Below are positions 9,515 to 52,814 of a stretch of DNA of 64,000 bases, in pieces; position 1 is the stretch's first letter; the number at the start of each line of letters is the position of its first letter. Source of the stretch: an uncultured Thermoleophilia bacterium (GTDB taxonomy: Bacteria > Actinomycetota > Thermoleophilia > UBA2241). The notes under the pieces are model-generated. The model did no database searches. It was given only the letters and a program-made list of their open reading frames with translations, and was not told where the DNA came from. Location of the stretch: NCBI GenBank assembly GCA_963814545.1, contig CAWFDC010000015.1, positions 75,565 to 139,564 on the forward strand, read 5' to 3'. The position numbers and the translations under genes are program-made.

Positions 9515-9599
9515 GCCGAGGCGTCGCGGCCCCGACCGCCGCGCGCGCACTCCCGCCGCGCTTGCGCCCCCTGCGCCCCGGGACGGAAGATGGGGCGCC

Positions 9600-11060
9600 A
9601 TGCGCCCCCGCCTGACACTGCTCGACGACGCCGGCCTCGAGCGCCTGCGCGCGGCGACGCTCGACGTGCTCGGCAACACGGGCGTCGCCTTCAAGAGCGC
9701 CGCCGCGCGCGCCGTGCTGCGCGACGCGGGGGCGCGGGTCGACGACGAGTCCGGGGTCGTCTGGATCCCGCCCGACCTCGTCGAGGCGACCGTCGCCGCG
9801 GCGCCGCGCGAGATCGTCCTCGGGGCGCGTGACGGCGTCCACGACCTGCGCCTCGACGGCACTGCCACCCACCCGACGCACGACGGCATCGGCGCCTACG
9901 TGCTCGACCACCACACGTTCGAGCGCCGCCAGGCGACCCTCGACGACCTGCGCGCCGCCACGCTCGTGGGCGACGCTCTGGAGGAGGTCGCACTGAGCTG
10001 GTACGCGGTGAACCCGAGCGGCAGCGTCGAGCCCCGCCTCGAGGGCGTGCTCTCCGCGCACACGCTGCTCACGGCGAGCGGCAAGCACGCCCAGGGCGCG
10101 GTGCTCGTGCCGCAGGACGTGCCCTACGTCATGGAGCTGGCCGGGCTCGCCTCGCCGGGCGGGCGCTGGGACCCTGCCCGCCCGGTCTTCTCGGCGATCT
10201 ACTGCCCGGTCTCGCCGCTGCAGCACGAGGCCGACGCGCTCGAGGCGGCGATGGCGCTCGTGCGGCAGCGCGTGCCGCTGAGCGTCTACGCGCTGCCGCT
10301 CGCCGGCGCCACCGCCCCGGCGACCCTTGCCGGGGCCATCGTGCAGACCAACGCCGAGGTGCTCTCCAGCGTCGTCCTCTTCCAGCTGCTCGAGCCCGGC
10401 TGCCCGCTGGTCTACGTCGCCAACGCCGCCCTCATGGACATGCACGCCGCGAGCTACGCGGCGGCCTCGCCTGAGAGCGCGCTCATGAACCTGGCCCTTG
10501 CCGAGCTCGGTCGTTCGTACGAGCTGCCGATTCTCACCGTCGGCTTCTCGACCGACGCCTGGACGCCCGGGCCGCGGCTCGGCGCCGAGTCCGCCTTGAT
10601 GACGGCGACCGGGCTGCTCGCCGGGGCCGACATCCTCATCGGCATGGGGATGGTGAACTCGGCCAACGCCCTCTGCCTGCCCAAGCTGGTCCTCGACGCC
10701 GAGCTCTGGGGCGCGTGCCGGCGCCTGGGCCGGGGGGTCGAGCTCGACGACGAGCACCTCATGCTCGACCTCATCCAGCGCGTGGGCCCGGGCGGGCACT
10801 ACCTGTCGGCCAAGGAGACCTCGGCGACGCTGCGCGCCGGCGAGCACTGGCGCCCCGATCTCTACCGGCGCGTCGCCTACGAGACCTGGCAGGCGAGGCG
10901 CCCGCCGGCTCCGGTGGGGACCCCGGACCCGGAGTGGGACGAGGCGGTCGAACGCGTCGAGGCGCTGCTCGCCACACACACGCCGCCGCCGCTGCCCGAC
11001 GGGGCCGAGGCCGCCATGGCCGACGCCGCCGCCGCCGCGGAGCGCGAGCTGCCCGCCTGA
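9600..11060 (+). CDS. MttB-superfamily (trimethylamine methyltransferase-like) corrinoid-dependent methyltransferase, non-pyrrolysine paralog
   Basis: Uninterrupted 486-aa ORF that aligns by eye with the two other MttB-family genes here (VYCPVSPLQHEADALEAA, ATAPATLAGAIVQTNAEVLS, GPGGHYLSAKET). It has Ser where the Pyl enzyme has UAG (VGF-S-TDAW). Confidence 0.85.
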   Translation: MRPRLTLLDDAGLERLRAATLDVLGNTGVAFKSAAARAVLRDAGARVDDESGVVWIPPDLVEATVAAAPREIVLGARDGVHDLRLDGTATHPTHDGIGAYVLDHHTFERRQATLDDLRAATLVGDALEEVALSWYAVNPSGSVEPRLEGVLSAHTLLTASGKHAQGAVLVPQDVPYVMELAGLASPGGRWDPARPVFSAIYCPVSPLQHEADALEAAMALVRQRVPLSVYALPLAGATAPATLAGAIVQTNAEVLSSVVLFQLLEPGCPLVYVANAALMDMHAASYAAASPESALMNLALAELGRSYELPILTVGFSTDAWTPGPRLGAESALMTATGLLAGADILIGMGMVNSANALCLPKLVLDAELWGACRRLGRGVELDDEHLMLDLIQRVGPGGHYLSAKETSATLRAGEHWRPDLYRRVAYETWQARRPPAPVGTPDPEWDEAVERVEALLATHTPPPLPDGAEAAMADAAAAAERELPA

Positions 11061-14653: not shown

Positions 14654-15319
14654 TCAGAGACCGTCGCCGGCCGGCACGCCGGCCCCGTCGCGCGCCTGCT
14701 CGAGCGCGTGCCGGATCAGCCCGGCCCAGTAGCGCAGCACCGGCTCGACGTCGAAGGACTGGTCGGCGGCGTACTGCATGGCGAGCCCGTCGCAGACCGC
14801 GACCGTGAGCGCGGTCAGCAGGCGCAGGCGCTCGCGCAGCTCGTCGTCGGCCTCGGGCTCGAGGGCGTAGATGTCGAGCTCGCGGTACCAGTCGAAGAGC
14901 TCCGCCATGCGCGGCCAGAGGCTCGGGTCGCGGATGAGGTTGGGGAAGAGGTCGAAGAAGAGACGGTACTGGCGCAGATTGGTGACCACGCGCAGGTGCT
15001 GCTCGATGAGGATGTCGACGCGGTCGTGGTCGGCGCCGGCCTTCGAGAGCTCGCGCAGCAGGCGGACGTTCTCGTCGTGCACCACCGAGTCGGCGAGCGC
15101 CCCGACCAGCCCGGCCTTGTTGCCGAAGTGGTAGCGGATCGAGGCCTTGTTCTCGCCGGCCTCGGCGGCGATCGCCTCGAGGGTGAGGCCCTTGAAGCCC
15201 TCGCGGCCGAGCACGCGCCGCGCGGCGGCGAGGATGCGCCGCGCCGTCGGCGACAGCTCGGCCGCCGCGTCGTCGGTGACCAGGCTCGCGCCCCGGACGC
15301 GGATCCCGTTGTCGGTCAT
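14654..15319 (-). CDS. TetR/AcrR family transcriptional regulator
   Basis: N-terminal HTH GFKGLTLEAIAAEAGENKASIRYHFGNKAGL. Start chosen at MTDNGIRV (15319). Divergent from the methylamine operon. Confidence 0.85.
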   Translation of the reverse strand: MTDNGIRVRGASLVTDDAAAELSPTARRILAAARRVLGREGFKGLTLEAIAAEAGENKASIRYHFGNKAGLVGALADSVVHDENVRLLRELSKAGADHDRVDILIEQHLRVVTNLRQYRLFFDLFPNLIRDPSLWPRMAELFDWYRELDIYALEPEADDELRERLRLLTALTVAVCDGLAMQYAADQSFDVEPVLRYWAGLIRHALEQARDGAGVPAGDGL

Positions 15320-15410
15320 CGGTGGTGCTCTCCGTCGGTCGTGGCCCCGGAGCGGCCGCGCCGCAGCGGGCGGCCGTTCTCCGGGTGCAGCCTGCCCCAT
15401 CGGCGCGCTG

Positions 15411-15438
15411 TTGACAACCCCCCGGGGCGACCTAGAAT
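15411..15438 (+). promoter_or_regulatory. Near-consensus sigma-70 promoter driving the SBP-mtbB-mttB operon
   Basis: TTGACA (15411-15416) - 16 nt - TAGAAT (15433-15438) in a locally lower-GC patch, about 195 nt upstream of the SBP start codon. Confidence 0.5.
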
Positions 15439-15449
15439 TGCCCGCGAAG

Positions 15450-15465
15450 TCATCCAACCGGATGA
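15450..15465. promoter_or_regulatory. Inverted repeat, candidate TetR operator
   Basis: TCATCC-AACC-GGATGA, 12 nt downstream of the -10 element, in the tetR / operon divergent region. Confidence 0.3.
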
Positions 15466-15633
15466 ATAGACGGTCGGACGGCTTCGACAGGGGGGCCGGG
15501 CTAAGCCCGGCGGCCTCGACGAGTGCGCGGTGTGGCCATCAGCAGCGGGGCCCGGTCCGTCGTCGCGCGCCTCGCCGGGGCACGTTCCGAGGCGCCCTCG
15601 TGCGCTCGCGCGAGGGCGGGAGAAGGGGGAAGG

Positions 15634-16830
15634 ATGACTATGACCAGCACCAGCAGACCTCCGGGGGGCGGCGTGCGCGACGAGCTCGAGAGGATCACGG
15701 GGGCCGTCGCCCACGGGGAGCTCACGCGACGGCAGTTCATCGAGCGCGGCGTGGCGCTCGGCCTCTCGGTGGGGGCGCTCGGCACGGTCCTCGCCGCCTG
15801 CGGCGACGAGGAGACCGCCCAGGAGACGCCGCAGGCGTGGGACACCACGCTGCCCGAGCAGATCCACATCTACAACTGGTCCGACTACATGTCGCCCGAG
15901 TGCCTCGAGAACTTCGAGGCCGAGTACGGGGTCAAGGTCCGCGAGAGCTACTACGACGGCAACGAGTCGATGTACGCCAAGCTGCAGGCGGGGGCGACCG
16001 GGTACGACGTCATCTTCCCGACCGACATGTGGGTCACGATCCTGCGCAAGAGCGACCTGCTCCAGCCGCTCGACATGGCGCTGATCCCGAACTTCGCCAA
16101 CGTCACCCAGGAGGTCTTCCAGAAGCCGGCCTTCGACAACCCCGACACCCAGGACGGCGAGAAGTACTCGGTGCCGTACATGTTCGGCACGACCGGCTAC
16201 GCGGCGACGCTGGCCAAGGTGCCGGCGCCGCAGGACTCGTGGAACCAGCTCTGGGACCCGGCGTTCGAGCGCCAGATCTCGATGCTCAACGCCCCGCGCG
16301 AGACGCTCGGGGTCGGGCTCATCAAGCTCGGCTACTCGCCGAACACCACGAGCCAGGAGGAGCTCGACCAGGCGGTGCTGCAGCTGACCGACCAGAAGCC
16401 CCTGGTGCTCAAGTACGACTCCACGAACACGCGGCGCAGCATCGTCGAAGGTCTCGCCCTGACGCACTGCTGGGACGGCGACGTCGCTCTGGCCGTCAAG
16501 GCGATCCCGACGGAGAACGTCAGCTACGTGCTGCCCAGCGAGGGCTACATCGTGTGGGCCGACGGCATCGCGATCCCGAAGTCGGCCGCCAATCCGTACG
16601 CCGCCCACCTCTTCCTCAACTTCATGCTCGACCCGAAGAACGTGGGCGCGGCGGCCGACTACATCGGCTACCAGCCGGTCGTGACCGCGGGCATGGACTA
16701 CGTGACCAACGAGACCCAGGTCGCCATGCGCCCGAGCGACGAGGTGATCGAGGCGGGCTATCTCGCCGAGGACGTCGGTGACTTCCAGCGCAATTACGAC
16801 GACGCCTGGCGCGACGTCGTGAGCGCCTGA
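15634..16830 (+). CDS. PotD/PotF-family (polyamine-type) ABC substrate-binding lipoprotein with Tat signal; no permease or ATPase adjacent
   Basis: ATG 15634 after GGGGGAAGG. Twin-arginine signal plus lipobox TRRQFIERGVALGLSVGALGTVLAAC. PotD-like core IHIYNWSDYMSPECLENFEAEYGVKVRESYYDGNESMYAKLQAG, YDVIFPTDMWV. Confidence 0.8.
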   Translation: MTMTSTSRPPGGGVRDELERITGAVAHGELTRRQFIERGVALGLSVGALGTVLAACGDEETAQETPQAWDTTLPEQIHIYNWSDYMSPECLENFEAEYGVKVRESYYDGNESMYAKLQAGATGYDVIFPTDMWVTILRKSDLLQPLDMALIPNFANVTQEVFQKPAFDNPDTQDGEKYSVPYMFGTTGYAATLAKVPAPQDSWNQLWDPAFERQISMLNAPRETLGVGLIKLGYSPNTTSQEELDQAVLQLTDQKPLVLKYDSTNTRRSIVEGLALTHCWDGDVALAVKAIPTENVSYVLPSEGYIVWADGIAIPKSAANPYAAHLFLNFMLDPKNVGAAADYIGYQPVVTAGMDYVTNETQVAMRPSDEVIEAGYLAEDVGDFQRNYDDAWRDVVSA

Positions 16831-16969: not shown

Positions 16970-18394
16970 TTGGACGACAGGATACTGACCCGCATGGGTG
17001 ACGGCTCGCTCGTCGAGACGACGCGCGCCCAGCTGCGCGCCGACGTCGAGGACGGCACCCGGCAGGCGGCGCGCCGCGCCAAGGTGCCGCCGCTCGAGCA
17101 GGGCGAGCTCGACCACCTCGAGGACATCTTCTGCTCGAACGCGCGCTTCACCGGCGTCGACCTCGGCGACGAGGTCATCATGAGCTACGACGGGTCGGGC
17201 AACGCCGACCTCGGCTCGCGCATGACCGAGATGCTCGCCTACCAGACGCACCAGGGCGCCGACATGCTCGAGCTCTGGCACATCGACTACTCGTACAAGG
17301 CCATCAAGACGATCCTCTCGTTCGAGGCCCACGAGATGAAGATGAGCCAGCTCAACCTGACGATCCCCATGCAGTACGGGGCGATGCCCGATCTGGGCCG
17401 GTACTCGAAGCCAGACGGCCCCATCCCGAACTGGTCCGAGCTCCTGCCGCTGGGACGCATCGAGGAGGCGCGGGAGGCGCAGCTCGAGGCCGGCGAGATG
17501 GCCACGCACGACATGCTCTTCGTCGCCGATGGCATGGTCGAGGCGGGCACCGACGGCCTCGACTTCGACACCGCCGGCGCCGCCGGCGACGGCGACTTCC
17601 TCGCCACCCTCAACGCGGTCGAGAAGATCCGCGCCAAGCACCCGCACGTGGGCATCGAGGTCGGCATGGCGAGCGAGTTCGTGCTCGGCATGCACGGCGA
17701 GCTCGAGTACAGGGGCGAGCGGCTCGCCGGCATGTGGCCGCACCAGCAGGTCAAGGCGGTGGCGGCGGCCGGCGGCACGATCTTCGGGCCGGCCGTGAAC
17801 GTCAACACGCGCCAGTCGGTGGCCTGGAACGTGAGCCGCGCCTGCACCCTGGTGAAGCGCTGCTGCGAGGAGTCGCCGATCCCCGTGCACATGAACGTCG
17901 GCATGGGCGTCGGCGGCGTGCCGATGACCGCGTACCCGCCGGTCGACGCCGTCTCGCGGGTCTCGAAGGCGCTCGTCGACGTGACCCGGATGGACGGCTT
18001 GTAGGTCGGCGTGGGCGACCCTGTGGGCATGTCGCTGGCCCACACGCTCGCCTCGGGCATGGGCGGGATGCGCGCCGCCGGAGACCTTGTGGCGCGCATG
18101 CAGATGACCCGGGGGATGCGGCTCAGTGAGGCCAAGGCGTACGTCGCCGGGAGGCTCGGCGTCTCGACCCTCGACCTCGTCGACCCCGTCGTCATGCACG
18201 ACGTGCGCGCCGAGCTCGGTCTCGGGCGCATCACCGTGCAGGAGCTGACCTACGCCGACCAGCCCTACGCGATCGAGGCCAAGTTCCGGATCAGCGAGGT
18301 GCTGGACATCCCGATCAACAGCGTCGAGCGCTTCGCCGCGCGCGCCGGGCTGGGGGCGCCGCGCGTGTCCGCCGCCGGCGGCGCGGCGGGCTGA
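16970..18394 (+). CDS. mtbB: Dimethylamine:corrinoid methyltransferase MtbB with in-frame UAG (18002-18004), predicted pyrrolysine
   Basis: ORFs 16970..18004 and 18011..18394 are in the same frame, separated only by TAG. Sequence is MtbB-like throughout (LTRMGDGSLV, HIDYSYKAIK, FDTAGAAGDGDF, GMWPHQQ, NVGMGVGGVPM, ...[41 protein letters not shown]). TTG start after GGGAGAGGGG. Confidence 0.9.
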
Positions 18395-18413: not shown

Positions 18414-19883
18414 GTGAAACGCAATCTGCACGCAGGACACCGGCGCAGCGGGGGGTTCAGCCTCAACGTCTTCACCGAGGCCGAGATGGACTCGATCCAC
18501 CTCGCGACCCTCGAAGTGCTCGAGCGCACCGGCGTCTTCGTCGAGGCCGACGAGGCGATCGACATCTTCACCGACGCCGGCTGCCGCGTCGACCGCGAGC
18601 GGCGCGTGGTCCGGATCCCGCCGCACCTGGTCGAGGACGCGATCCGCTCGGCGCCGAGCCGCTTCACGCTCTGCGGGCGCGACCCGAAGAACGACTTCGT
18701 CCTGGAGCCGGGTCGCGTCGCCTTCACCAACTTCAGCGAGGGCATCCGCCTGATCGACCCGTTCAGCGGCGAGTACCGCGACCCGACCAAGAAGGACATC
18801 GGTGACATCGCCCGGCTCAACGACTACCTGAGCGAGATGGACACGCACGAGATCTCGGTCGGGGCCAGCGACGCGCCCGCCGAGACCATCTCCGTGCACA
18901 ACAGCGAGCAGCAGCTCCTCAACACGACCAAGCCGATCGGCATCGGGCCGCTCTCGCGCATGGAGAGCATCGCCGTCTTCCGCATGTGCGCCGAGATCGT
19001 CGGCGGCGAGGACGCGCTGCGCGAGCGCCCCATCGTCTACAACGGCGTCTGCCCGGTGAGCCCGCTCAAGCTGCCGCACGAGGTCACCGAGGTGATCATC
19101 GAGACGGCGCGCTGGGGCCTGCCCTGCAACATCCTCTCGATGGCCATGGCCGGGGGCTCGTCGCCCGTGACCCTGGCCGGCACGATGGTCACGCACAACG
19201 CCGAGGTCCTCGCCGGCATCACGCTCTCGCAGCTCGCCGAGCGCGGCGTCCCGGTGATCTACGGCAGCTCGACCACGGCCATGGACCTGAAGCTCGCCGC
19301 GGCCAGCGTCGGTACGCCGGAGCTCGCCATGGTCAGCGCCGCGGTGGCGCAGATGGCGCGCCGCTACCTCCTCCCGAGCTTCGTGGCGGGGTTGTAGGCT
19401 GACTCCAAGGTCGGTGACGCGCAGACCGGTCACGAGAAGACCCTCACCGGGTTGCTGGCAGCGTTGGCAGGGGCCAACCTGATCTACGGGGCGGGGATGA
19501 TCGAATCGGGCGTCACCTTCGACTGCGGGCAGTTCGTCATGGACAACGAGTTCGCGCGCATGATCAAGCACAGCGTCATGGGCATCCCGGTCGACGACGA
19601 GACCCTGGCGGTGGAGGACATCGCCATGGTCGGGCCGTTCGGGGACTTCCTCAGCCTCGACGCGACGCTCAAGCACATGCGCACCCTCAGCCAGCCTGCC
19701 CACCTCGACCGCCGTGTGCGCGAGGACTGGCAAGACCGCGGCGCCACCGACCTGTATGCTCGCTGTACGGCGGAGGCGCGGCAGATCATCGAGGAGTACC
19801 GGCCTGAACCGCTGCCGGACGACGTGGCGCGGCGTATCCACGCCATCGTCGAGGAGACCGACCGGGCGGCGGGTGTGGCCTGA
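18414..19883 (+). CDS. mttB: Trimethylamine:corrinoid methyltransferase MttB with in-frame UAG (19395-19397), predicted pyrrolysine
   Basis: ORFs 18414..19397 and 19452..19883 share a frame, and the gap has no other stop. MttB-like throughout (FSLNVFTEAEMDSIHLATLEVLERTGV, NILSMAMAGGSSPVTLAGTMVTHNAEVLAG, ...[47 protein letters not shown]). GTG start 5 nt after GGAGGTG. Confidence 0.9.
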
Positions 19884-20010: not shown

Positions 20011-20646
20011 GTGAGCGACCAGTACGGACCACTGAAGCAGGCCGTGATCGACGGCAACGCCGACCTGACGAACGCGCTGGTCCAGGCGGCGCTGGCCCAG
20101 GGGCAGGCGCCCCGCGACATCCTCGAGGGTGCCCTGCTGCCCGGTATGGAGGTCGTCGGCCAGCGCATGAAGAGCGGCGAGTGCTTCATCCCCGAGGTGC
20201 TGCTCTCGGCGCGGGTCATGCAGGGCGCGCTCGACACCCTGCGGCCCCTCCTCGGCGAGGGCGAGGGCGGCGGCCTCGGCACCGTGGTCATCGGCACGGT
20301 CGAGGGCGACCTGCACGACATCGGCAAGAACCTCGTCGGCATGATGCTGTCGGGCGCCGGCTTCGAGGTCGTCAACCTCGGCACCGGGATCACCCCGGCG
20401 CAGTTCGTCGCCGCCGCCGAGGAGCACGGGGCGGCGATCGTCGGCATGAGCGCTCTGCTCACGACGACGATCCCGCGCATGAAGGAGACCATCGACGCCC
20501 TCGCCGCCGCCGGGCTCAGGGACAAGGTCAAGGTCATGATCGGCGGCGCCCCCGTCACCCAGGCCTTCGCCGACGAGATCGGCGCCGACGGTTACGGCGC
20601 CAACGCCGGCGCCGCCGTCGACCGTGCCAAGGCCCTGGTGAAGTGA
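20011..20646 (+). CDS. Corrinoid (cobalamin-binding) methyl-carrier protein, MttC/MtbC type
   Basis: B12-binding DxHxxG motif GTVEGDLHDIGKNLVG, then GMSALLTTT and MIGGAPVT, with an N-terminal helical cap domain. GTG start after AAGGAGACAGG. Confidence 0.9.
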   Translation: MSDQYGPLKQAVIDGNADLTNALVQAALAQGQAPRDILEGALLPGMEVVGQRMKSGECFIPEVLLSARVMQGALDTLRPLLGEGEGGGLGTVVIGTVEGDLHDIGKNLVGMMLSGAGFEVVNLGTGITPAQFVAAAEEHGAAIVGMSALLTTTIPRMKETIDALAAAGLRDKVKVMIGGAPVTQAFADEIGADGYGANAGAAVDRAKALVK

Positions 20647-22103
20647 TGCCGAAGGCCCCCGCCCCGGGGCGCCTGGCGCCCCGCGTCAGCATGCTCACCG
20701 ACGACGCGTTCGCCTACCTGCACGGGCAGACGCTCGAGCTGCTGGCGACCGTCGGCGTACGCTTCGCGAGCCCCCGTGCCCGCGCGCTGCTGCGCGAGGC
20801 GGGCGCCCGGGTCGACGACGAGAGCCTGGTGGTCCGTCTCCCGGCCGAGCTTGTCGAGCGGGCCGTGGCCGCGGCGCCGCACGACGTGCTGCTGGCTGCC
20901 CGCGACGGCGAGCACGACGCCCTGCTCGACCGCTCGCGTACCTTCGTGGGCCACGACGGCATGGGCGCCATGACGATGGACCACCGCACCGGCGAGCGGC
21001 GGCCGTCCACCGACCAGGACCTCTACGAGGCCTGCGTCGTCGCCGACGCCCTCGACGAGCTCGGCTTCTGCTGGTACGTCGCGACGCCCAACGACGCCGT
21101 GCCCGCCGTGCAGTCGCTGCAGGGCATCGTCACCATGCTGCGCGGCTCGGGCAAACACGCGCAGGGCGATCTGAGCGATCCTCTCCTCGTGCCCTACGCG
21201 CTGGAGGCGGCGGCGGCGGCGAGCCCCGGCGGCGTGTGGGACCCGGCGAGGCCGGTCTTCTCGATCGTGTACTGCCCGGTCTCGCCGCTGCAGCACGACG
21301 CCGAGGCCCTCGACGCCGCCATGCTGCTCGCCGAGCAGGGTGTGCCGATCGTCGTCTACAGCCTCGCGCTCGCGGGGGCGACGGCGCCGGTCACGCTCGC
21401 CGGCACCCTGGTGCAGACCAACGCCGAGGTCCTCAGCGGCCTCGTCGCCCTGCAGCTCGCGGCGCCGGGCAGCCCCTTCGTCTACGTCGGCAACTCGAGC
21501 ATCCTGGACATGAAGACCTGCACCTTCGGCGCCTGCGGGCCCGAGGCGCTGCTCTTCAATCTGGCGCTGACCGAGATGGGGCACCGCTACGGCTTCCCCG
21601 TGCTCTCCGGCGGGCTGTCGAGCGACGCCAAGGAGCTCTGCATGCAGTCGGGGTACGAGGGCGGCACGATGGCGCTCCTCAGCACTCTCGCCCGCGCCGA
21701 CCTCTTCGTCGGCGTCGGCATGCTCGACTCGGCGCAGTTCCTCTACCTGCCGAAGATGGTGCTCGACGCCGAGGTCGTCGCCCAGTGCGCTCACGTGGCG
21801 CGCGGCGTGCAGCTCGACGACGAGAGCGTGATGCTCGAGGTGTCGGCGCGGATCGGCCCGGGCGGCCACTTCCTCGGCGCGCGCGAGACGAGCTCGTTCC
21901 TGCGCCGGGGCGAGCACCACCAGCTCAAGGTCTTCCAGCGCGGCTCGTACGAGGCGTGGCGGGCGCACCCGGTCCCCGAGGCCGAGCGGGCGACGGCCGT
22001 GGTCGACGAGATCCTCGCCGCGCACCGGCCGTCGGCCTTGCCCCCGGGCGGCGAGGAGCGCATGGCCGCCGCCGTGGCCGCCGCCGCGGAGAGGCGCGAC
22101 TAG
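20646..22103 (+). CDS. MttB-superfamily methyltransferase, non-pyrrolysine paralog (quaternary-amine type candidate), translationally coupled to the corrinoid protein
   Basis: ATG overlaps the upstream TGA. 485 aa uninterrupted, paralogous to 9600..11060 (VYCPVSPLQHDAEALDAA, ATAPVTLAGTLVQTNAEVLSG, GPGGHFLGARET). Ser at the Pyl-equivalent position (GGL-S-SDAK). Ends in TAG. Confidence 0.85.
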   Translation: MPKAPAPGRLAPRVSMLTDDAFAYLHGQTLELLATVGVRFASPRARALLREAGARVDDESLVVRLPAELVERAVAAAPHDVLLAARDGEHDALLDRSRTFVGHDGMGAMTMDHRTGERRPSTDQDLYEACVVADALDELGFCWYVATPNDAVPAVQSLQGIVTMLRGSGKHAQGDLSDPLLVPYALEAAAAASPGGVWDPARPVFSIVYCPVSPLQHDAEALDAAMLLAEQGVPIVVYSLALAGATAPVTLAGTLVQTNAEVLSGLVALQLAAPGSPFVYVGNSSILDMKTCTFGACGPEALLFNLALTEMGHRYGFPVLSGGLSSDAKELCMQSGYEGGTMALLSTLARADLFVGVGMLDSAQFLYLPKMVLDAEVVAQCAHVARGVQLDDESVMLEVSARIGPGGHFLGARETSSFLRRGEHHQLKVFQRGSYEAWRAHPVPEAERATAVVDEILAAHRPSALPPGGEERMAAAVAAAAERRD

Positions 22104-44252: not shown

Positions 44253-45116
44253 TTACGCCATCACCGCGTGCGCGTCGATGAGGTGCTTGCTGACGCCGAT
44301 CGTCTTCTCGTCGAGGCCGATGGCGCGGCCGACGAGCTGGCTGAGGAAGAGCACGGGCACGCCGGCCCACGAGCTGTCCTTGCGCGCGATCTCGCTCTGG
44401 CGGCCGTCGAGGTTGACCTGGCAGAGCGGGCAGGCGACGGCGATCGCCTCGGCGCCGCAGTCGCGCGCGTCGCTCACGATGCGCCCCACGAGCCCGTCGA
44501 CGATCTCCTGCTCGGTGAGCGCCAGCGCGGCGCCGCAGCAGTCGGTCTTGTAGTTCCAGTCGACCGCCTCGCAGCCGAGGGCCTCGACGACGGCGTCCAT
44601 GTGCGTCGGGTACTCGGGGTCCTCGGCGAGGGTGACCTCGGGCGGGCGTGTGAGCAGGCAGCCGTAGTAGCAGGCCACCTTGAGGCCCTTGAACGGGCGC
44701 TTCACCTTGGCGGCGAGCGCCTCGAGGCCGACCGCGTCGTGATAGACGTCGACCAGGTTCTGCACGGTGACGCCGCCCTCGTAGCCGCGCCCGACGACCG
44801 AGCGCACGTCGTCGGCGACCGCCGGGTCGCGGGCGACCTCGTGCGCGCCGGTCTTGAAACGGCTGAAGCAGGCGGCGCAGGGCACGGCCACGGCGTCGAG
44901 CTTCAGGTCCTTCTCGACCTTGACCAGCTCGTTCACTGGCAGCGCCGTGGCGAGCAGGCGGTTGATCGAGTGCGCCGCGGTGTTGCCGCAGCACTCCCAG
45001 CCGGGGATCTCGACGAGGTCGAGGTCGAGCGTCCGCGCCGTGGCCCTGAAGCTGGCGTCGAACTCGCCCGAGGTGCCGTGCAGCGAGCAGCCGGGGTAGT
45101 AGGCGATACTCGTCAC
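44253..45116 (-). CDS. hdrB: Heterodisulfide reductase subunit B-like (two CCG domains)
   Basis: YYPGCSLHG, WECCGNTAAH, VPCAACF, YYGCLLTRP, TDCCGAALAL and VACPLCQVNLD. The GTG start overlaps the hdrC stop (GTGA). TAA stop. Confidence 0.9.
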   Translation of the reverse strand: MTSIAYYPGCSLHGTSGEFDASFRATARTLDLDLVEIPGWECCGNTAAHSINRLLATALPVNELVKVEKDLKLDAVAVPCAACFSRFKTGAHEVARDPAVADDVRSVVGRGYEGGVTVQNLVDVYHDAVGLEALAAKVKRPFKGLKVACYYGCLLTRPPEVTLAEDPEYPTHMDAVVEALGCEAVDWNYKTDCCGAALALTEQEIVDGLVGRIVSDARDCGAEAIAVACPLCQVNLDGRQSEIARKDSSWAGVPVLFLSQLVGRAIGLDEKTIGVSKHLIDAHAVMA

Positions 45117-45763
45117 GACGCACCTCCGCCCTCGTCGCCGGACGGCGCGGCCGCGCCCTTGCCGGACGGTGGGGCCGCGTCCTTGCCGGCCCGCGCCGCG
45201 CTCTTGGCCTCGCGGGCCCGGGTGAGACTCTCGGCGGTCTTGACCATGCGCTTCATGGCGTCGGTGTCGCCCTTCTTGAGCGTGGGGTTGATCTTGCCCT
45301 TGAGCAGCATCTTGGGCCCGAGCGAGAGCCACTCGAGGGCGCCCTTGGGCCGGCGCAGGGCGTCGCGCGCGATGAGCTCGACCTCCCACATGCGGCCCCA
45401 GCGGACGAACGAGTTGTAGTTGAGCTTGAGCATGGCCGCCGACGGGGCGTCCGGGTGCACCTTGCCCTCGCGCCAGGCGATGATCTTGAGCTCGTCCATG
45501 ATCGCCGCGATGTCGATGCCCTGCGGGCAGCGCGTGGTGCAGGTCTGGCACCCGGTGCACAGCCAGATGAACTTGTCGTCGAAGATCATGTCGTACTGTC
45601 CGAGCTGGACGGCACGCATGATCTGCGCCGGGTGCATGCCGGCGTGCTCGGCCACCGGGCACCCGGCCGTGCAGCGCTTGCACTGGTAGCAGAGGTAGGG
45701 GTTCTCGGCGCAGCCGGCCCCCACCTTGGTGGCGAGGACGCCGCTCGGTGTGCAGGTCGTCAT
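45113..45763 (-). CDS. hdrC: Heterodisulfide reductase subunit C-like (2x[4Fe-4S])
   Basis: CYQCKRCTAGCP and CTGCQTCTTRCP. ATG 45763 lies 5 nt after AGGAGGTG. Lys/Ala/Gly-rich C-terminal tail. Confidence 0.9.
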   Translation of the reverse strand: MTTCTPSGVLATKVGAGCAENPYLCYQCKRCTAGCPVAEHAGMHPAQIMRAVQLGQYDMIFDDKFIWLCTGCQTCTTRCPQGIDIAAIMDELKIIAWREGKVHPDAPSAAMLKLNYNSFVRWGRMWEVELIARDALRRPKGALEWLSLGPKMLLKGKINPTLKKGDTDAMKRMVKTAESLTRAREAKSAARAGKDAAPPSGKGAAAPSGDEGGGAS

Positions 45764-45772
45764 CCCCACCTC

Positions 45773-46717
45773 CTAGGCCACTGCCGGCCGCGGCATGAGG
45801 CCCGCGGCCTCGACGATCTCGGGCACCGCGGACTCCCACTCGATGGCCATGATGTGGACGCCGGCGACACCCTCGATCTCGGTGAACTCCTTGATCATCT
45901 CGACGGCGATCTTCTTGCCCTCGGCCTGCTGCGGGGCGCCCTTCTCGGGGACGGCCATGCGATCGACGATGTCCTGCGGGACGTCGATGCCGGGAACGAA
46001 CTTCTGCATGTAGCGCGCCCCGCCGACGCCCTTCAGCGGCGTGATGCCGGCGAGGATCTTGATCTCCTTGTGCAGGCCCAGGGCGCGCACCTCCTCCATC
46101 CACTTCTTGAACTTGGGGACGTTGAAGATGCACTGGGTCTGCATGAAGTCGGCGCCGGCCTCGATCTTCTTCTTGAGGCGCAGGGCGCGGAGGTCGAAGG
46201 GGTCGGCGAAGGGGTTCTCGGCGCAGCCGATGTAGAGCGGCGGCGCGACCGTCATCTCCTCGCCGCACTGGAACTTCTTCTCGTCGCGCATGTCCTTGTA
46301 CATCTTGATGAGGTTGATGGCGTCGAGGTCGTGCACGCCCCTGGCCTCGGGGTGGTTGCCGAAGCTCAGGTGGTCGCCGGTGAGGCAGAGGATGTTCTTG
46401 ATGCCCAGTGTGGCGGCGCCGAGGATGTCGGCCTGCATCGCCAGACGGTTGCGGTCGCGGCAGGTCATCTGCATGATCGCCTCGAGCCCGTTCTGCTGGG
46501 CGGTGTGGCCCGACGCCAGGGAGCACACGCGGACCACGGCGGTCTGGTTGTCGGTGATGTTGACGGCGTCGACGTAGCCCTTGAGGATCTTGGCCTTCTC
46601 CTCGATGACGGTGACGTCGGCGCCCTTGGGCGGGCCGCACTCGCCGGTGACGGCGAACTTGCCTTCGGCGAGGATCTTCTCGAGGTTGGAGCCGGCCTTG
46701 TATCCGTTGTCCCTCAT
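45773..46717 (-). CDS. metF: Methylenetetrahydrofolate reductase, acetogen-type MetF
   Basis: KFAVTGECGPPKGAD, VDAVNITDNQ, MTCRDRN, ILCLTGDH, FMQTQCIFN. The start overlaps the metV stop (ATGA). Stop is TAG. Confidence 0.9.
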   Translation of the reverse strand: MRDNGYKAGSNLEKILAEGKFAVTGECGPPKGADVTVIEEKAKILKGYVDAVNITDNQTAVVRVCSLASGHTAQQNGLEAIMQMTCRDRNRLAMQADILGAATLGIKNILCLTGDHLSFGNHPEARGVHDLDAINLIKMYKDMRDEKKFQCGEEMTVAPPLYIGCAENPFADPFDLRALRLKKKIEAGADFMQTQCIFNVPKFKKWMEEVRALGLHKEIKILAGITPLKGVGGARYMQKFVPGIDVPQDIVDRMAVPEKGAPQQAEGKKIAVEMIKEFTEIEGVAGVHIMAIEWESAVPEIVEAAGLMPRPAVA

Positions 46718-47397
46718 ACCGGCTTCGCCTCCTCGCGCACCATCTTGCGGGGGCCGCCGGAGCTGCTCTTGCTCCAGTTCTTCGGCGGCCGGTCGGTGAA
46801 CATGAGCTCTTCGCGGCCCTGTGCCTTGAGGCGCTCCCAGATGAGGGCCCAGGCGCACTCGATCTCTTCCTTGTCGGGCCCGGTGACTTCGCACAGGCCG
46901 TCGTGCGAACCGCCGCAAGGGCCGTTCATGAGGCTCTTGCTGCAGCGCACGACGGGGCAGATGCCGCCGGTCAGGCCGATGCGGCACTCGCCGCAGGCGA
47001 CGCAGCGCTCGAGCCACACGGCGTGCTCCTGCGGCATGCCCAGCATGTTGGTGTCGACGGCCGGCACGACGAGCCTGGGGGCGAACTTCTCGGCCATGCT
47101 CTGGATGCCGATGCCGCAGGCCATGCTGAGGACGACGTCGGCCTCCTCGACCTTGGCGGCGATCATGTCGAGGTACTCCCACTCGCACTGCCTGATGGCG
47201 GCGGTGTGCTCGACCTCGATCTCGCGGCCGTCGGCCTGTGCCTTCATGCGCAGCTCGCTGGCGAGGATCTCGGCCTCTTTCTCGCCTCCGGTGAGGCAGA
47301 TGGCGACGCAGGTGTCGCAGCCGGCGACGAGGATCTTCTTGTGTCCGGCGACGAGGTCCAGGATCTCGTCGAACGGCTTGCGTTCAGCGGTGATCAT
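46714..47397 (-). CDS. metV: MetV, zinc-ribbon/MTHFR-C-terminal-like small subunit of methylene-THF reductase
   Basis: ILVAGCDTCVAICLTGG, SMACGIGIQ and CVACGECRIGLTGGICPVVRCSKSLMNGPCGG. ATGA overlap with mvhD. Confidence 0.85.
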   Translation of the reverse strand: MITAERKPFDEILDLVAGHKKILVAGCDTCVAICLTGGEKEAEILASELRMKAQADGREIEVEHTAAIRQCEWEYLDMIAAKVEEADVVLSMACGIGIQSMAEKFAPRLVVPAVDTNMLGMPQEHAVWLERCVACGECRIGLTGGICPVVRCSKSLMNGPCGGSHDGLCEVTGPDKEEIECAWALIWERLKAQGREELMFTDRPPKNWSKSSSGGPRKMVREEAKPV

Positions 47398-48086
47398 TCG
47401 GCGGGTCCCTTCTCGGTGGTGGCGGAGGCGGTGTCGGGCGCCGGCGCGGCGGCGCCGGCCGGCGCCCCCTCGGGCATGGCCACGTCGCCGGCGGCCTCAC
47501 GGGCCGCGGCATGCGGCGACACGTCGTGGCGCCGCAGCGGGTTCGGCCCGAGGGCCTTGATCCGGTCGGTGAACTCGGTCGCGACGCGGGCGAACTCGGC
47601 GCCCATCGCCGACGACATGTTGTACATCTCCACGCGCTCGGGCTCGATGCCCACCTCGGCGAGGAGGGCCTTGACGTGGTCGACGCGCTTGCGCGCCCAG
47701 AGGTTGCCCTTGAGGTAGTGACACTCACCCTCGAGGCAGCCGGCGGCGTAGACGCCGTCGGCGCCGGCCTCGATCGCGCGCATGAGGTGGATGACCTCGA
47801 GCTTGCCCGTGCAGGGCAGCTTGATCATGCGGATGTTCGACGGGTATTGCAGGCGCATGCTGCCCGCCAGGTCGGCGGCGGCGTAGGCGCAGTAGTGACA
47901 GGCGAACACGATGATCTCGGGCTCGAAGTCGGGGTCGACGGGCTTCTTCGGCGCCTCGGTCTCGGCGGCCTCGGCGCCCTCGGGTGCGTCGGCGACGGCG
48001 GTCGGGGCGGAGGCCCCCGCCGTCGCCTGAGCCGTCGTGGCTGCCTGCGCCGTCGTGGCCGCGGTCACCTTCGGCTCCTCGGCCAT
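47394..48086 (-). CDS. mvhD: MvhD/FlpD-like (methyl-viologen-reducing hydrogenase delta subunit) electron-transfer protein with Ala/Thr-rich N- and C-terminal extensions
   Basis: IIVFACHYCAYAAADLAG, IKLPCTGKLEVIHLMRAIEAGADGVYAAGCLEGECHY. ATG 1 nt after the hdrA stop, preceded by GGAGGTGA. Confidence 0.85.
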   Translation of the reverse strand: MAEEPKVTAATTAQAATTAQATAGASAPTAVADAPEGAEAAETEAPKKPVDPDFEPEIIVFACHYCAYAAADLAGSMRLQYPSNIRMIKLPCTGKLEVIHLMRAIEAGADGVYAAGCLEGECHYLKGNLWARKRVDHVKALLAEVGIEPERVEMYNMSSAMGAEFARVATEFTDRIKALGPNPLRRHDVSPHAAAREAAGDVAMPEGAPAGAAAPAPDTASATTEKGPAE

Positions 48087-48087
48087 C

Positions 48088-52533: not shown

Positions 52534-52814
52534 AGGCGAACTCCTTCGACGAGCGAGCGGCTGGCCAAGAAACGTGGGTGATCGCAGACTCCGCGACCCA
52601 CTGGGATGTGGCTCAAGTATAGCCGAGCGCTCGCGCCTTCGTCCACAAGCGGACCGAGTTTCTGAGGAGCCTCGTCAAGGGGGTTGAGTGTACGGGGACG
52701 CTCCGACGAATCCGGGCCTCCGCCGGGCTCCGGGAGCACCTATGATTGAGCCGCGAAGGGCGCCCGGCGCCCGGCGGCGGCCGCACGAGCAAGAGACCGA
52801 AAGGCAGGCCCTTG

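What the first reader, a model, noticed from the sequence alone, without database searches (positions are those of the whole stretch)
19395..19397. Second in-frame UAG: trimethylamine methyltransferase MttB with predicted pyrrolysine
ORFs 18414..19397 and 19452..19883 share a frame (19452-18414 = 1038), and there is no other stop in the gap. Read-through gives ...[14 protein letters not shown][UAG][38 protein letters not shown]. This matches my recollection of Methanosarcina MttB (...[45 protein letters not shown]). Two different enzyme families in adjacent genes are each interrupted once, exactly at their family-specific Pyl site. That is very hard to explain by chance or sequencing error.
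Basis: partly seen in the sequence, partly recalled or inferred. Interest (0 to 1): 0.9.

Follow-up and report, generated by a model that had tools for sequence, protein, structure and literature searches.

The report
Pyrrolysine-encoding trimethylamine methyltransferase gene (mttB)
The "stop" codon at 19395-19397 sits inside one intact gene for a trimethylamine methyltransferase, at the position where this enzyme family carries the rare 22nd amino acid pyrrolysine; the reading is correct, but the same genes were already reported in related soil and peat Actinobacteria.

Summary
The observation and the interpretation are both confirmed. ORFs 18414..19397 and 19452..19883 are one gene, mttB, interrupted by a single in-frame TAG. 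Read through, the 489-aa product passes the NCBIfam equivalog for Pyl-type MttB (686.6 bits against a cutoff of 525). The two uninterrupted paralogs in the window fail it (349 and 367 bits). The TAG aligns with Pyl334 of the solved Methanosarcina barkeri MttB. In the 78 related loci, from 52 Thermoleophilia/Actinomycetota MAGs, every mttB homolog of 63-98% identity has TAG at this codon. Codon-periodic conservation continues after it. The adjacent mtbB shows the same pattern (103 of 103 copies). The window has no pyl genes and no tRNA. However, related MAGs carry a complete pylSc-pylSn-tRNAPyl(CUA)-pylD-pylC-pylB cluster, and two of them also hold TAG-mttB genes. TAG also ends 6 of 43 window genes, so UAG has two meanings here, as in other Pyl bacteria. 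This is not new in kind: expressed Pyl-mttB and Pyl-mtbB in Actinobacteriota MAGs, including genus Bog-752, were reported in 2023. Two minor departures: Ser replaces the reportedly invariant Gly110, and an invariant hairpin lies about 66 nt after the UAG.

The parts
18414..19883 (+). mttB, trimethylamine:corrinoid methyltransferase. It is one gene of 489 codons plus a TGA stop, read through the internal UAG.
   Evidence: TIGR02369 686.6 bits (cutoff 525) and PF06253 328 bits over the whole length. E = 3e-119 to PDB 7xcl/7xcm M. barkeri MttB over residues 2-485. GC3 is 0.97 before and 0.90 after the TAG.
19395..19397 (+). In-frame UAG, the predicted pyrrolysine codon (residue 328, equivalent to Pyl334 of M. 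barkeri MttB).
   Evidence: It aligns with X/K334 of 7xcl/7xcm. TAG is present in 61 of 61 intact homologs at 63-98% identity.
19395..19494 (+). Match to Rfam RF02510 PYLIS_3 (the 100 nt starting at the UAG).
   Evidence: 76.2 bits against a gathering score of 38. Several model pairs are non-canonical here, so the score is largely explained by conserved coding sequence. I do not take it as proof of an RNA structure.
19463..19478 (+). Invariant hairpin GUUGGC-AGGG-GCCAAC, 66 nt after the UAG, built from the rare codons TTG351 and GCA352. Function unknown.
   Evidence: TTG351 and GCA352 are each 61/61, although GC3 is about 0.95. The only variable base is in the loop. Synonymous entropy is 0.46 for codons 329-361 against 0.73 gene-wide (permutation p = 0.003).
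16970..18394 (+). mtbB, dimethylamine:corrinoid methyltransferase, with its own in-frame UAG at 18002-18004. It is the gene immediately upstream, in the same operon.
   Evidence: TIGR02368 441.7 bits (cutoff 369.1), PF09505 580 bits. Rfam PYLIS_2 77.1 bits at 18002-18101. TAG is at the same codon in 103 of 103 copies in related loci.
20011..20646 (+). Cognate corrinoid (B12-binding) protein, MttC/MtbC-like.
   Evidence: PF02607 + PF02310. TIGR02370 pyl_corrinoid 193.6 bits (cutoff 215.3, just below), with MtgC/MtbC-like models similar. The DxHxxG motif is visible in the translation.
20646..22103 (+). Non-Pyl MttB-superfamily paralog (Ser at the Pyl column). It overlaps the mttC stop by 1 nt and probably acts on a quaternary amine.
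   Evidence: PF06253 243.8 bits. TIGR02369 scores only 367 bits, below the 525 cutoff. Alignment.
15523..16830 (+). PotD/PotF-like periplasmic solute-binding protein, the first gene of the + strand cluster.
   Evidence: SBP_bac_8 and related Pfam families. PotD model 178 bits, below its cutoff.
14654..15457 (-). Divergent TetR-family regulator, a candidate regulator of the methylamine operon (inference).
   Evidence: PF00440 TetR_N. Weak similarity to BetI.
9540..11060 (+). Second non-Pyl MttB-superfamily paralog (Ser at the Pyl column).
   Evidence: PF06253 241 bits. TIGR02369 349 bits, below the 525 cutoff. Alignment.

Best explanation
The stretch 18414..19883 is a single functional mttB gene of an uncultured Thermoleophilia (Actinomycetota) bacterium. 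Its internal UAG (19395-19397) is decoded as pyrrolysine by a tRNAPyl(CUA)/PylSc+PylSn pair, with pyrrolysine made by PylB, PylC and PylD, all encoded elsewhere in the genome. The full-length enzyme uses the pyrroline ring of Pyl328 to bind and activate trimethylamine. It then passes one methyl group to the Co(I) corrinoid protein encoded just downstream (20011-20646). The upstream mtbB does the same for dimethylamine through its own UAG. The methyl groups presumably enter tetrahydrofolate C1 metabolism; a MetF/MetV/MvhD/HdrA-like cluster lies at 45-52.7 kb. UAG is not reassigned genome-wide, because it still ends about 14% of the window's genes, so insertion competes with termination. What is shown: gene integrity, the Pyl-column match, deep conservation of the TAG and of the downstream frame, and the presence of the pyl machinery in the lineage. 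What is inferred: that this genome has the machinery, that Pyl is actually inserted, the substrate, the downstream THF route, and any regulation by the TetR gene.
For: (1) The read-through protein scores 686.6 bits on the TIGR02369 equivalog (cutoff 525). The window's two uninterrupted paralogs score 349 and 367.
(2) The TAG aligns with Pyl334 of PDB 7xcl. The Tyr364 and Met249 equivalents are conserved (residue roles from PMC9842639).
(3) More than 100 database homologs at 77-92% identity are all exactly 327 aa, that is, cut at the same TAG by gene callers.
(4) In 78 loci from 52 Thermoleophilia/Actinomycetota MAGs, every homolog of 63% identity or more has TAG at codon 328, and tblastn homology runs on to about codon 490.
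(5) In 61 intact genes the variation at codon positions 1/2/3 is 0.154/0.112/0.245 before the TAG and 0.130/0.113/0.221 after it, so the downstream part is translated in frame. The 18 codons between the TAG and the first possible restart codon are highly conserved at protein level.
(6) mtbB shows the same pattern in 103 of 103 copies.
(7) Pyl machinery in the lineage. MAG JAAZAR01 has PylSc 319.7, PylSn 126.6, PylD 212.1, PylC 336.9 and PylB 444.4 bits, all above NCBIfam cutoffs, plus tRNA-Pyl(CUA), and also two TAG-mttB loci (L064, L071). MAG JBAZPK01 has pylSc (L081) and a TAG-mttB (L045). In L082 pylSc lies next to a TAG-split mtbB. The same pyl cluster and synteny recur in L083-L086.
(8) A cognate corrinoid protein gene is adjacent.
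(9) Published metatranscriptomes show expression of Pyl-mttB and Pyl-mtbB in Actinobacteriota MAGs, including genus Bog-752, whose type MAG bog_752 is my L028/L031.
Against: No pyl gene and no tRNA lies in the 64-kb window, nor within 10 kb of mttB in any of the 78 related loci. The link to decoding machinery is therefore at lineage level, not genome level. The two MAGs with both components have MttB only 67-76% identical to the window's. TAG is a normal terminator for 6 of 43 window genes, so a fraction of ribosomes must terminate at codon 328. The residue equivalent to Gly110, reported as 100% conserved in Pyl-MttBs, is Ser here. There is no read, transcript or peptide evidence for this sequence itself.
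Confidence: 0.93

Rival explanations
1. It is a pseudogene or a sequencing/assembly error: a chance nonsense mutation or miscalled base split a once-intact mttB.
For: A single in-frame stop is what a fresh nonsense mutation looks like. Some related long-read MAG copies do carry frameshifts or extra stops (L008, L026, L047, L067, L077).
Against: The TAG is at the same codon in 61 of 61 intact homologs from 52 independent assemblies, down to 63% identity. It is never TAA, TGA or a sense codon. Purifying, codon-periodic selection continues after it. The neighbouring gene shows the same at its own Pyl site.
Confidence: 0.01
2. It is a genuinely split gene: UAG terminates, and a second polypeptide restarts at TTG 19452, the two halves assembling into the enzyme.
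For: An ORF with a TTG start exists 18 codons after the TAG. TAG is a working terminator elsewhere in the window.
Against: The 18 codons between the TAG and TTG 19452 ([18 protein letters not shown]) are among the most conserved in the protein. They match the M. barkeri active-site segment that flanks Pyl334 and would be lost. No start codon or ribosome-binding site is conserved there. The catalytic residue itself would be missing.
Confidence: 0.02
3. The UAG is read through, but with a standard amino acid (near-cognate or suppressor tRNA), because this genome lacks the pyl cassette.
For: The pyl genes are not in the window or next to mttB in any relative. Close non-Pyl homologs with Leu, Trp or Ala at this column exist in Actinomycetes MAGs.
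Against: If a standard residue were enough, a sense codon would have replaced the TAG somewhere among 61 diverged copies; none has. The lineage carries complete, syntenic pylSc/Sn/T/B/C/D clusters. The Pyl-partner residue Tyr364 is kept in 61 of 61 TAG genes but is replaced in 6 of the 7 non-Pyl homologs aligned (P0030 keeps it).
Confidence: 0.03

Closest known systems
Methanosarcina barkeri MttB (PDB 7XCL/7XCM/7XCN), the Pyl334-dependent trimethylamine:corrinoid methyltransferase
   Same: Same fold family (PF06253) and same length, with 45% identity over the full length and E = 3e-119. The UAG is on the Pyl334 column. The Tyr364 and Met249 equivalents are conserved. A cognate corrinoid protein gene lies next door.
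   Different: The host is a bacterium (Actinomycetota, 72% GC), not a methanogen. The Gly110-Thr111 cis-peptide motif is Ser108-Glu109 here (S 37, D 15, G 9 among 61 lineage genes). The methyl acceptor pathway is presumably THF rather than coenzyme M. The pyl genes are unlinked to mtt. PylS is split into PylSn and PylSc.
Pyl-mttB/mtbB of Actinobacteriota MAGs from Stordalen Mire (genus Bog-752 and others; Ellenbogen et al. 2023, mSystems, PMC10805028)
   Same: Same lineage and same genes. The bog_752 MAG (PLTW01) is among my related loci (L028, L031), with MttB 77-78% identical to the window's and TAG at the same codon. The paper identified these genes by amber truncation and showed transcripts.
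   Different: The window comes from another genus- or species-level group. Its closest matches are SMAG_U16054 at 97% nt, and MFD00709.bin.2.166, Zod_maxbin.0406_1 and bin.663 at 91-93% nt. The passages I retrieved from the paper by keyword do not mention the pyl cassette, the Gly110 substitutions or the downstream hairpin.
Bacterial Pyl systems of Bacillota and Deltaproteobacteria (Desulfitobacterium hafniense, Acetohalobium arabaticum, Bilophila wadsworthia)
   Same: Split PylSn + PylSc, pylBCD and tRNAPyl(CUA). UAG is kept as a terminator for other genes. Pyl is confined to methylamine methyltransferases. The lineage PylSc is about 52% identical to D. hafniense PylSc.
   Different: In the lineage the pyl cluster sits in a housekeeping neighbourhood: gltX-cysS...pmbA/tldD-HTH-amidase_3-pylSc | pylSn | Germane lipoprotein | pylT-pylD-pylC-pylB. 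In most loci it is not next to the mtt genes. The gene order differs from the D. hafniense pylT-Sc-B-C-D-Sn order (from my own knowledge).
Non-Pyl MttB superfamily (MtgB, MtcB, MtpB, MtyB quaternary-amine methyltransferases)
   Same: Same Pfam family. Two such paralogs are in the window (9540-11060 and 20646-22103).
   Different: They have a sense codon (Ser here) at the Pyl column, score below the TIGR02369 cutoff (349 and 367 against 525), and are only 29-30% identical to the TAG gene.

Membership tests
Pyl-dependent trimethylamine methyltransferase MttB (NCBIfam TIGR02369 equivalog; Pfam PF06253) | Full-length similarity above the curated equivalog threshold | tested here: met
   686.6 bits against a cutoff of 525, model positions 1-469 of 469. 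The non-Pyl paralogs in the same window score 349 and 367.
Pyl-dependent trimethylamine methyltransferase MttB (NCBIfam TIGR02369 equivalog; Pfam PF06253) | A single in-frame UAG at the column of the catalytic pyrrolysine (Pyl334 in M. barkeri) | tested here: met
   HMMER alignment to 7xcl (X334) and 7xcm (K334) puts the TAG on that column. The MAFFT alignment agrees. TAG is present in 61 of 61 lineage homologs.
Pyl-dependent trimethylamine methyltransferase MttB (NCBIfam TIGR02369 equivalog; Pfam PF06253) | Active-site partners Tyr364 (proton shuttle; Y364F loses about 96% of Vmax) and Met249 | tested here: met
   Tyr358 and Met243 are in the window protein, and both are 61/61 in the lineage. 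Roles are from PMC9842639.
Pyl-dependent trimethylamine methyltransferase MttB (NCBIfam TIGR02369 equivalog; Pfam PF06253) | Gly110-Thr111 cis-peptide motif. It is reported as 100% conserved in 66 UniProt Pyl-MttBs. I treat it as an accessory observation, not part of the family definition, because the contact is through the main-chain carbonyl. | tested here: not met
   The window has Ser108-Glu109. The lineage has S 37, D 15 and G 9 at the first position and Glu 61/61 at the second. All of these genes keep the TAG and Tyr364, so I still file the gene as MttB, but this is a real difference.
Pyl-dependent trimethylamine methyltransferase MttB (NCBIfam TIGR02369 equivalog; Pfam PF06253) | Adjacent cognate corrinoid protein gene (MttC) | tested here: met
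   B12-binding_2 + B12-binding protein at 20011-20646. The pyl_corrinoid model scores 193.6 bits, just under its cutoff of 215.3.
Pyl-dependent trimethylamine methyltransferase MttB (NCBIfam TIGR02369 equivalog; Pfam PF06253) | Pyl biosynthesis and decoding genes (pylT, pylS, pylB, pylC, pylD) in the same genome | not testable with these tools
   They are absent from the 64-kb window, and the rest of the genome is not available. In the lineage they are present and complete. They are found together with TAG-mttB in MAGs JAAZAR01 and JBAZPK01.
Pyl-dependent trimethylamine methyltransferase MttB (NCBIfam TIGR02369 equivalog; Pfam PF06253) | Pyrrolysine actually incorporated; TMA:corrinoid methyl transfer activity | not testable with these tools
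   This needs proteomics or enzymology. The only indirect support is published transcription of the orthologous genes in peat.
PYLIS_3 cis-regulatory RNA (Rfam RF02510) | Score above the gathering threshold, with the model's base pairs formed | tested here: inconclusive
   76.2 bits against 38, but about six model pairs are non-canonical in the window. The model overlaps strongly conserved coding sequence. RNAalifold on 59 unique lineage sequences gave only a weak consensus (-19 kcal/mol) without covariation.

The most novel reading that the evidence does not exclude
In this lineage UAG remains a common terminator, yet dozens of mttB and mtbB copies need it read as Pyl. Read-through might be helped by a lineage-specific mRNA element downstream of the UAG. 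Synonymous variation is suppressed for about 50 codons after the TAG, and rare codons (TTG351, GCA352, GGT334/339) are frozen, forming an invariant 6-bp hairpin at +66..+83. That would be a bacterial, functional PYLIS-like signal. A parallel possibility is that the Gly110-to-Ser/Asp paralog classes have diverged in amine substrate.
Probability: 0.12. Interest if true: 0.6.

Novelty: new member of a known kind. Interest (0 to 1): 0.3.

Why it matters
The practical point is annotation. Standard gene callers split this gene, and all of the more than 100 closest database entries are 327-aa fragments. The methylamine-degrading capacity of a widespread soil, peat and sediment Thermoleophilia group is therefore systematically under-annotated. 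Ecologically, these bacteria would compete with methylotrophic methanogens for tri- and dimethylamine. That matters for methane budgets in wetlands, the argument already made for Stordalen Mire (PMC10805028). For genetic-code biology, the lineage offers a large natural data set for asking how bacteria tolerate a UAG with two meanings: at least 52 species, several mttB paralog classes, and up to five mtbB copies per locus, all with a conserved UAG in a genome that still terminates at UAG. It also shows that the "invariant" Gly110 of Pyl-MttB is not invariant.

Tried and rejected
- I looked for the pyl genes and tRNAPyl in the window with ARAGORN, Rfam, Pfam scans of about 60 ORFs, and tblastn with M. 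mazei PylS. Nothing was found.
- I looked within 10 kb of mttB in all 78 related loci. There was no tRNAPyl and no PylS.
- An exact-sequence look-up of the window's 327-aa fragment found no record, so the source contig could not be identified.
- A PylS homolog search with D. hafniense PylSc returned only Bacillota in its top 120. I got round this through the 50%-cluster representative search. From its hits I picked the Ala/Arg-rich, Lys-poor representative P0242 and searched again with it.
- ENA sample and contig names could not be mapped to the MFD MAG names. Co-occurrence in one genome is therefore shown only for the two NCBI-named MAGs, JBAZPK01 and JAAZAR01.
- I do not accept PYLIS_3 as evidence of an RNA structure, because the score follows coding conservation and several pairs are broken.
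- The third in-frame TAG, at 45773-45775, is rejected as a Pyl site. MetF ends there, and an HdrC-like gene starts with ATG three codons later.
- I considered genome-wide UAG reassignment and rejected it: 6 of 43 genes end in TAG.
- Literature searches for pyrrolysine with Thermoleophilia or Actinomycetota gave nothing of substance. The search with Actinobacteriota found the Stordalen paper.

Full report
**What is in the sequence**

The window is 72% G+C. The codon at 19395-19397 is TAG. It separates ORF 18414..19397 (327 aa, GTG start preceded by GGAGG) from ORF 19452..19883 in the same frame, and there is no other stop between them. Third-position G+C is 0.97 before and 0.90 after the TAG, so both parts look coding in this frame.

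**What the protein is**

- Read through, the 489-aa product matches the NCBIfam equivalog TIGR02369 for [trimethylamine--corrinoid protein] Co-methyltransferase over the whole model: 686.6 bits against a cutoff of 525. It also matches Pfam MTTB.
- Against solved structures, the best match is M. barkeri MttB (7xcl/7xcm/7xcn), E = 3e-119 over residues 2-485. The TAG lies on the column that is X (Pyl334) in 7xcl and K in the 7xcm mutant.
- The structure paper assigns catalytic roles to Pyl334, Tyr364, Met249 and the Gly110-Thr111 cis peptide (PMC9842639). The window protein keeps the Tyr and the Met. It has Ser-Glu instead of Gly-Thr.
- Two further MttB-family genes in the window (9540-11060 and 20646-22103) have no internal stop, carry Ser at the Pyl column, and score only 349 and 367 bits on the same model. 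The model therefore separates the TAG gene from its non-Pyl relatives.

**Gene neighbourhood**

The gene sits in a cluster:

- a divergent TetR regulator (14654-15457, minus strand);
- a PotD-like binding protein (15523-16830);
- mtbB (16970-18394; own TAG at 18002-18004; TIGR02368 441.7 bits against 369.1);
- mttB;
- a corrinoid protein (20011-20646);
- a non-Pyl MttB paralog (20646-22103).

Rfam reports PYLIS_2 at the mtbB TAG and PYLIS_3 at the mttB TAG, both well above gathering score. The models overlap conserved coding sequence and several pairs are broken, so I do not count this as independent structural evidence.

**Is the TAG more than an accident?**

- A homolog search returned more than 100 proteins at 77-92% identity, all exactly 327 aa, that is, cut at the same place by gene callers.
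- A scan of GTDB species genomes gave 78 loci from 52 MAGs, all labelled Thermoleophilia, Actinomycetes or Actinomycetota.
- In every homolog of 63% identity or more the first in-frame stop is TAG at codon 328, and tblastn homology continues to about codon 490.
- In 61 intact genes the TAG is invariant. Variation at codon positions 1/2/3 is 0.154/0.112/0.245 upstream and 0.130/0.113/0.221 downstream, so the downstream part is translated in the same frame.
- The 18 codons between the TAG and the first possible restart codon are among the best conserved.
- The same loci hold 103 mtbB copies, up to five per locus. All have TAG at their own conserved codon.

A nonsense mutation, an assembly error and a split gene are therefore not credible.

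**Whose genome is it?**

The window is 97.4% identical in DNA to a short contig of MAG SMAG_U16054. It is 91-93% identical, and syntenic over about 20 kb, to MAGs Zod_maxbin.0406_1, MFD00709.bin.2.166 and bin.663, all labelled Thermoleophilia bacterium.

**Is the decoding machinery there?**

- It is not in the window. There is no tRNA, no pyl family among about 60 ORFs scanned, and no PylS by tblastn.
- It is also not within 10 kb of mttB in any related locus.
- I therefore searched from PylS. D. hafniense PylSc was recalled from memory and checked as identical to PDB 3dsq. It found only Bacillota in the top hits.
- The 50%-cluster representative search gave 47 clusters at E <= 1e-30. Among them was a Lys-poor, Ala/Arg-rich sequence, P0242.
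- Searching with P0242 gave more than 100 clusters at 64-78% identity. Two are named by NCBI as pyrrolysine--tRNA(Pyl) ligase large subunit of a Thermoleophilia and an Actinobacteria MAG.
- Their contigs show a conserved arrangement: amidase_3, pylSc, pylSn (opposite strand), a Germane-domain lipoprotein, tRNA-Pyl(CUA), pylD, pylC, pylB.
- In MAG JAAZAR01 all five proteins exceed their NCBIfam equivalog cutoffs: PylSc 319.7/178, PylSn 126.6/51, PylD 212.1/150, PylC 336.9/248, PylB 444.4/348. ARAGORN calls a tRNA-Pyl with the usual 6-bp anticodon stem and 3-nt variable loop.
- JAAZAR01 also holds two TAG-mttB loci (L064, L071). MAG JBAZPK01 holds pylSc (L081) and a TAG-mttB (L045).
- In L082 pylSc lies next to a TAG-split mtbB.

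The lineage is thus equipped to read UAG as Pyl. That the window's own genome is equipped is an inference.

**How UAG is used otherwise**

Six of 43 confidently placed genes in the window end in TAG (36 TGA, 1 TAA). The next in-frame stop lies 15-219 codons further on. UAG is therefore ambiguous here, as in other Pyl bacteria, and not reassigned.

**Things that differ from the textbook case**

1. Gly110, reported as invariant, is Ser in the window. Across the lineage's three paralog classes it is Ser, Asp or Gly, and all classes keep the TAG.
2. Synonymous variation is depressed for about 50 codons after the TAG: entropy 0.46 against 0.73, permutation p = 0.003, without correction for phylogeny. 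The rare codons TTG351 and GCA352 are invariant and form a perfect 6-bp hairpin with GCC-AAC at 19463-19478, and the one variable base is in the loop. At +66 nt it is too far to touch a ribosome paused on the UAG, and there is no covariation, so its role is open.
3. Actinomycetes MAGs also carry uninterrupted homologs at 55-58% identity with Leu, Trp or Ala at the Pyl column. Six of the seven aligned lack Tyr364 (P0030 keeps it).

**Comparison with what is known**

- Guo et al. 2022 listed PylRS in "two Actinobacteria" (PMC9630628).
- Ellenbogen et al. [quoted passage not shown]
- MAG bog_752 is among my related loci, with TAG at the same codon (L028, L031).

The finding is therefore a correct identification of a new member of a kind already described in this very lineage.

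**Verdict**

Confidence that this is a Pyl-decoded mttB is about 0.93. Novelty is low to moderate. The value lies in correcting a systematic mis-annotation and in the comparative data set for dual-use UAG.

Noticed in passing
window 16970-18394 (TAG at 18002-18004): The adjacent mtbB (dimethylamine methyltransferase) has its own single in-frame TAG. It scores TIGR02368 441.7 bits (cutoff 369.1) and Rfam PYLIS_2 77 bits. The TAG is conserved in 103 of 103 copies in related loci, with up to five copies per 20-kb locus.
   Followed up: yes
window 18735-18740 (codons 108-109 of mttB): Ser-Glu replaces the Gly110-Thr111 cis-peptide that the MttB structure paper reports as 100% conserved among Pyl-MttBs. 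The lineage has three paralog classes (Ser 37, Asp 15, Gly 9), and all have the TAG.
   Followed up: partly
window 19463-19478: A perfect 6-bp hairpin, GUUGGC-AGGG-GCCAAC, is made of invariant rare codons (TTG351 and GCA352, 61/61 each) in a gene with GC3 of about 0.95. Synonymous variation is low over codons 329-380. There is no covariation, so the function is unknown.
   Followed up: partly
window 45773-45775 (minus strand): MetF (45776-46720) ends in TAG, and an HdrC-like ferredoxin ORF (45113-45769) follows in the same frame, with its ATG three codons later. Pyl read-through would fuse the two proteins. I read it as a normal gene boundary.
   Followed up: partly
window 45113-52674 (minus strand): There is a MetF, MetV (DUF5981), MvhD and 1,529-aa HdrA/GltD-like fusion cluster, typical of electron-bifurcating methylene-THF reductase systems of anaerobes with the Wood-Ljungdahl pathway. 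It is a plausible sink for the methyl groups.
   Followed up: no
window 9540-11060 and 20646-22103: Two non-Pyl MttB-superfamily paralogs carry Ser at the Pyl column (TIGR02369 349 and 367 bits, below the cutoff). They are probably quaternary-amine methyltransferases. The second is translationally coupled to the corrinoid gene (TGATG overlap).
   Followed up: partly
whole window: Stop codon usage among 43 placed genes is TGA 36, TAG 6, TAA 1. The genes ending in TAG include ribonucleotide reductase, EamA, a macro-domain protein, an HTH regulator, MetF and the non-Pyl MttB paralog.
   Followed up: yes
P0016, P0030, P0045, P0055, P0076, P0092, P0120 (database proteins): Uninterrupted homologs from Actinomycetes MAGs, 55-58% identical to the window MttB, carry Leu (5), Trp (1) or Ala (1) at the Pyl column. 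Six of the seven lack Tyr364 (P0030 keeps it). They may be a recently de-pyrrolysinated branch, or a sister family with another substrate.
   Followed up: no
L079:13500-20858 (ENA ERZ25039459 contig_76141): This public contig is chimeric. G+C drops from 72% to about 30% at roughly 13.5 kb, and the join cuts pylC in half.
   Followed up: yes
L047:11240 and L026:9642: Two related mttB copies carry a second in-frame TAG, at codon 414 and codon 285 respectively, with homology continuing beyond it. These could be extra UAG sites, decaying copies or long-read errors.
   Followed up: no
L083-L086, L090 (pyl loci of relatives): The pyl cluster lies in a conserved housekeeping neighbourhood (cysS, gltX, pmbA/tldD, HTH, amidase_3). 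The pylSc start overlaps the amidase stop by 4 nt, and a Germane/Gmad2 lipoprotein gene sits between pylSn and pylT. This suggests long vertical inheritance in the lineage.
   Followed up: partly
database hits: All of the more than 100 closest public protein entries for this MttB are 327-aa fragments, and some are named 'trimethylamine methyltransferase family protein'. The Pyl gene is systematically truncated in the protein predictions held from JGI, ENA, NCBI and Logan assemblies.
   Followed up: yes
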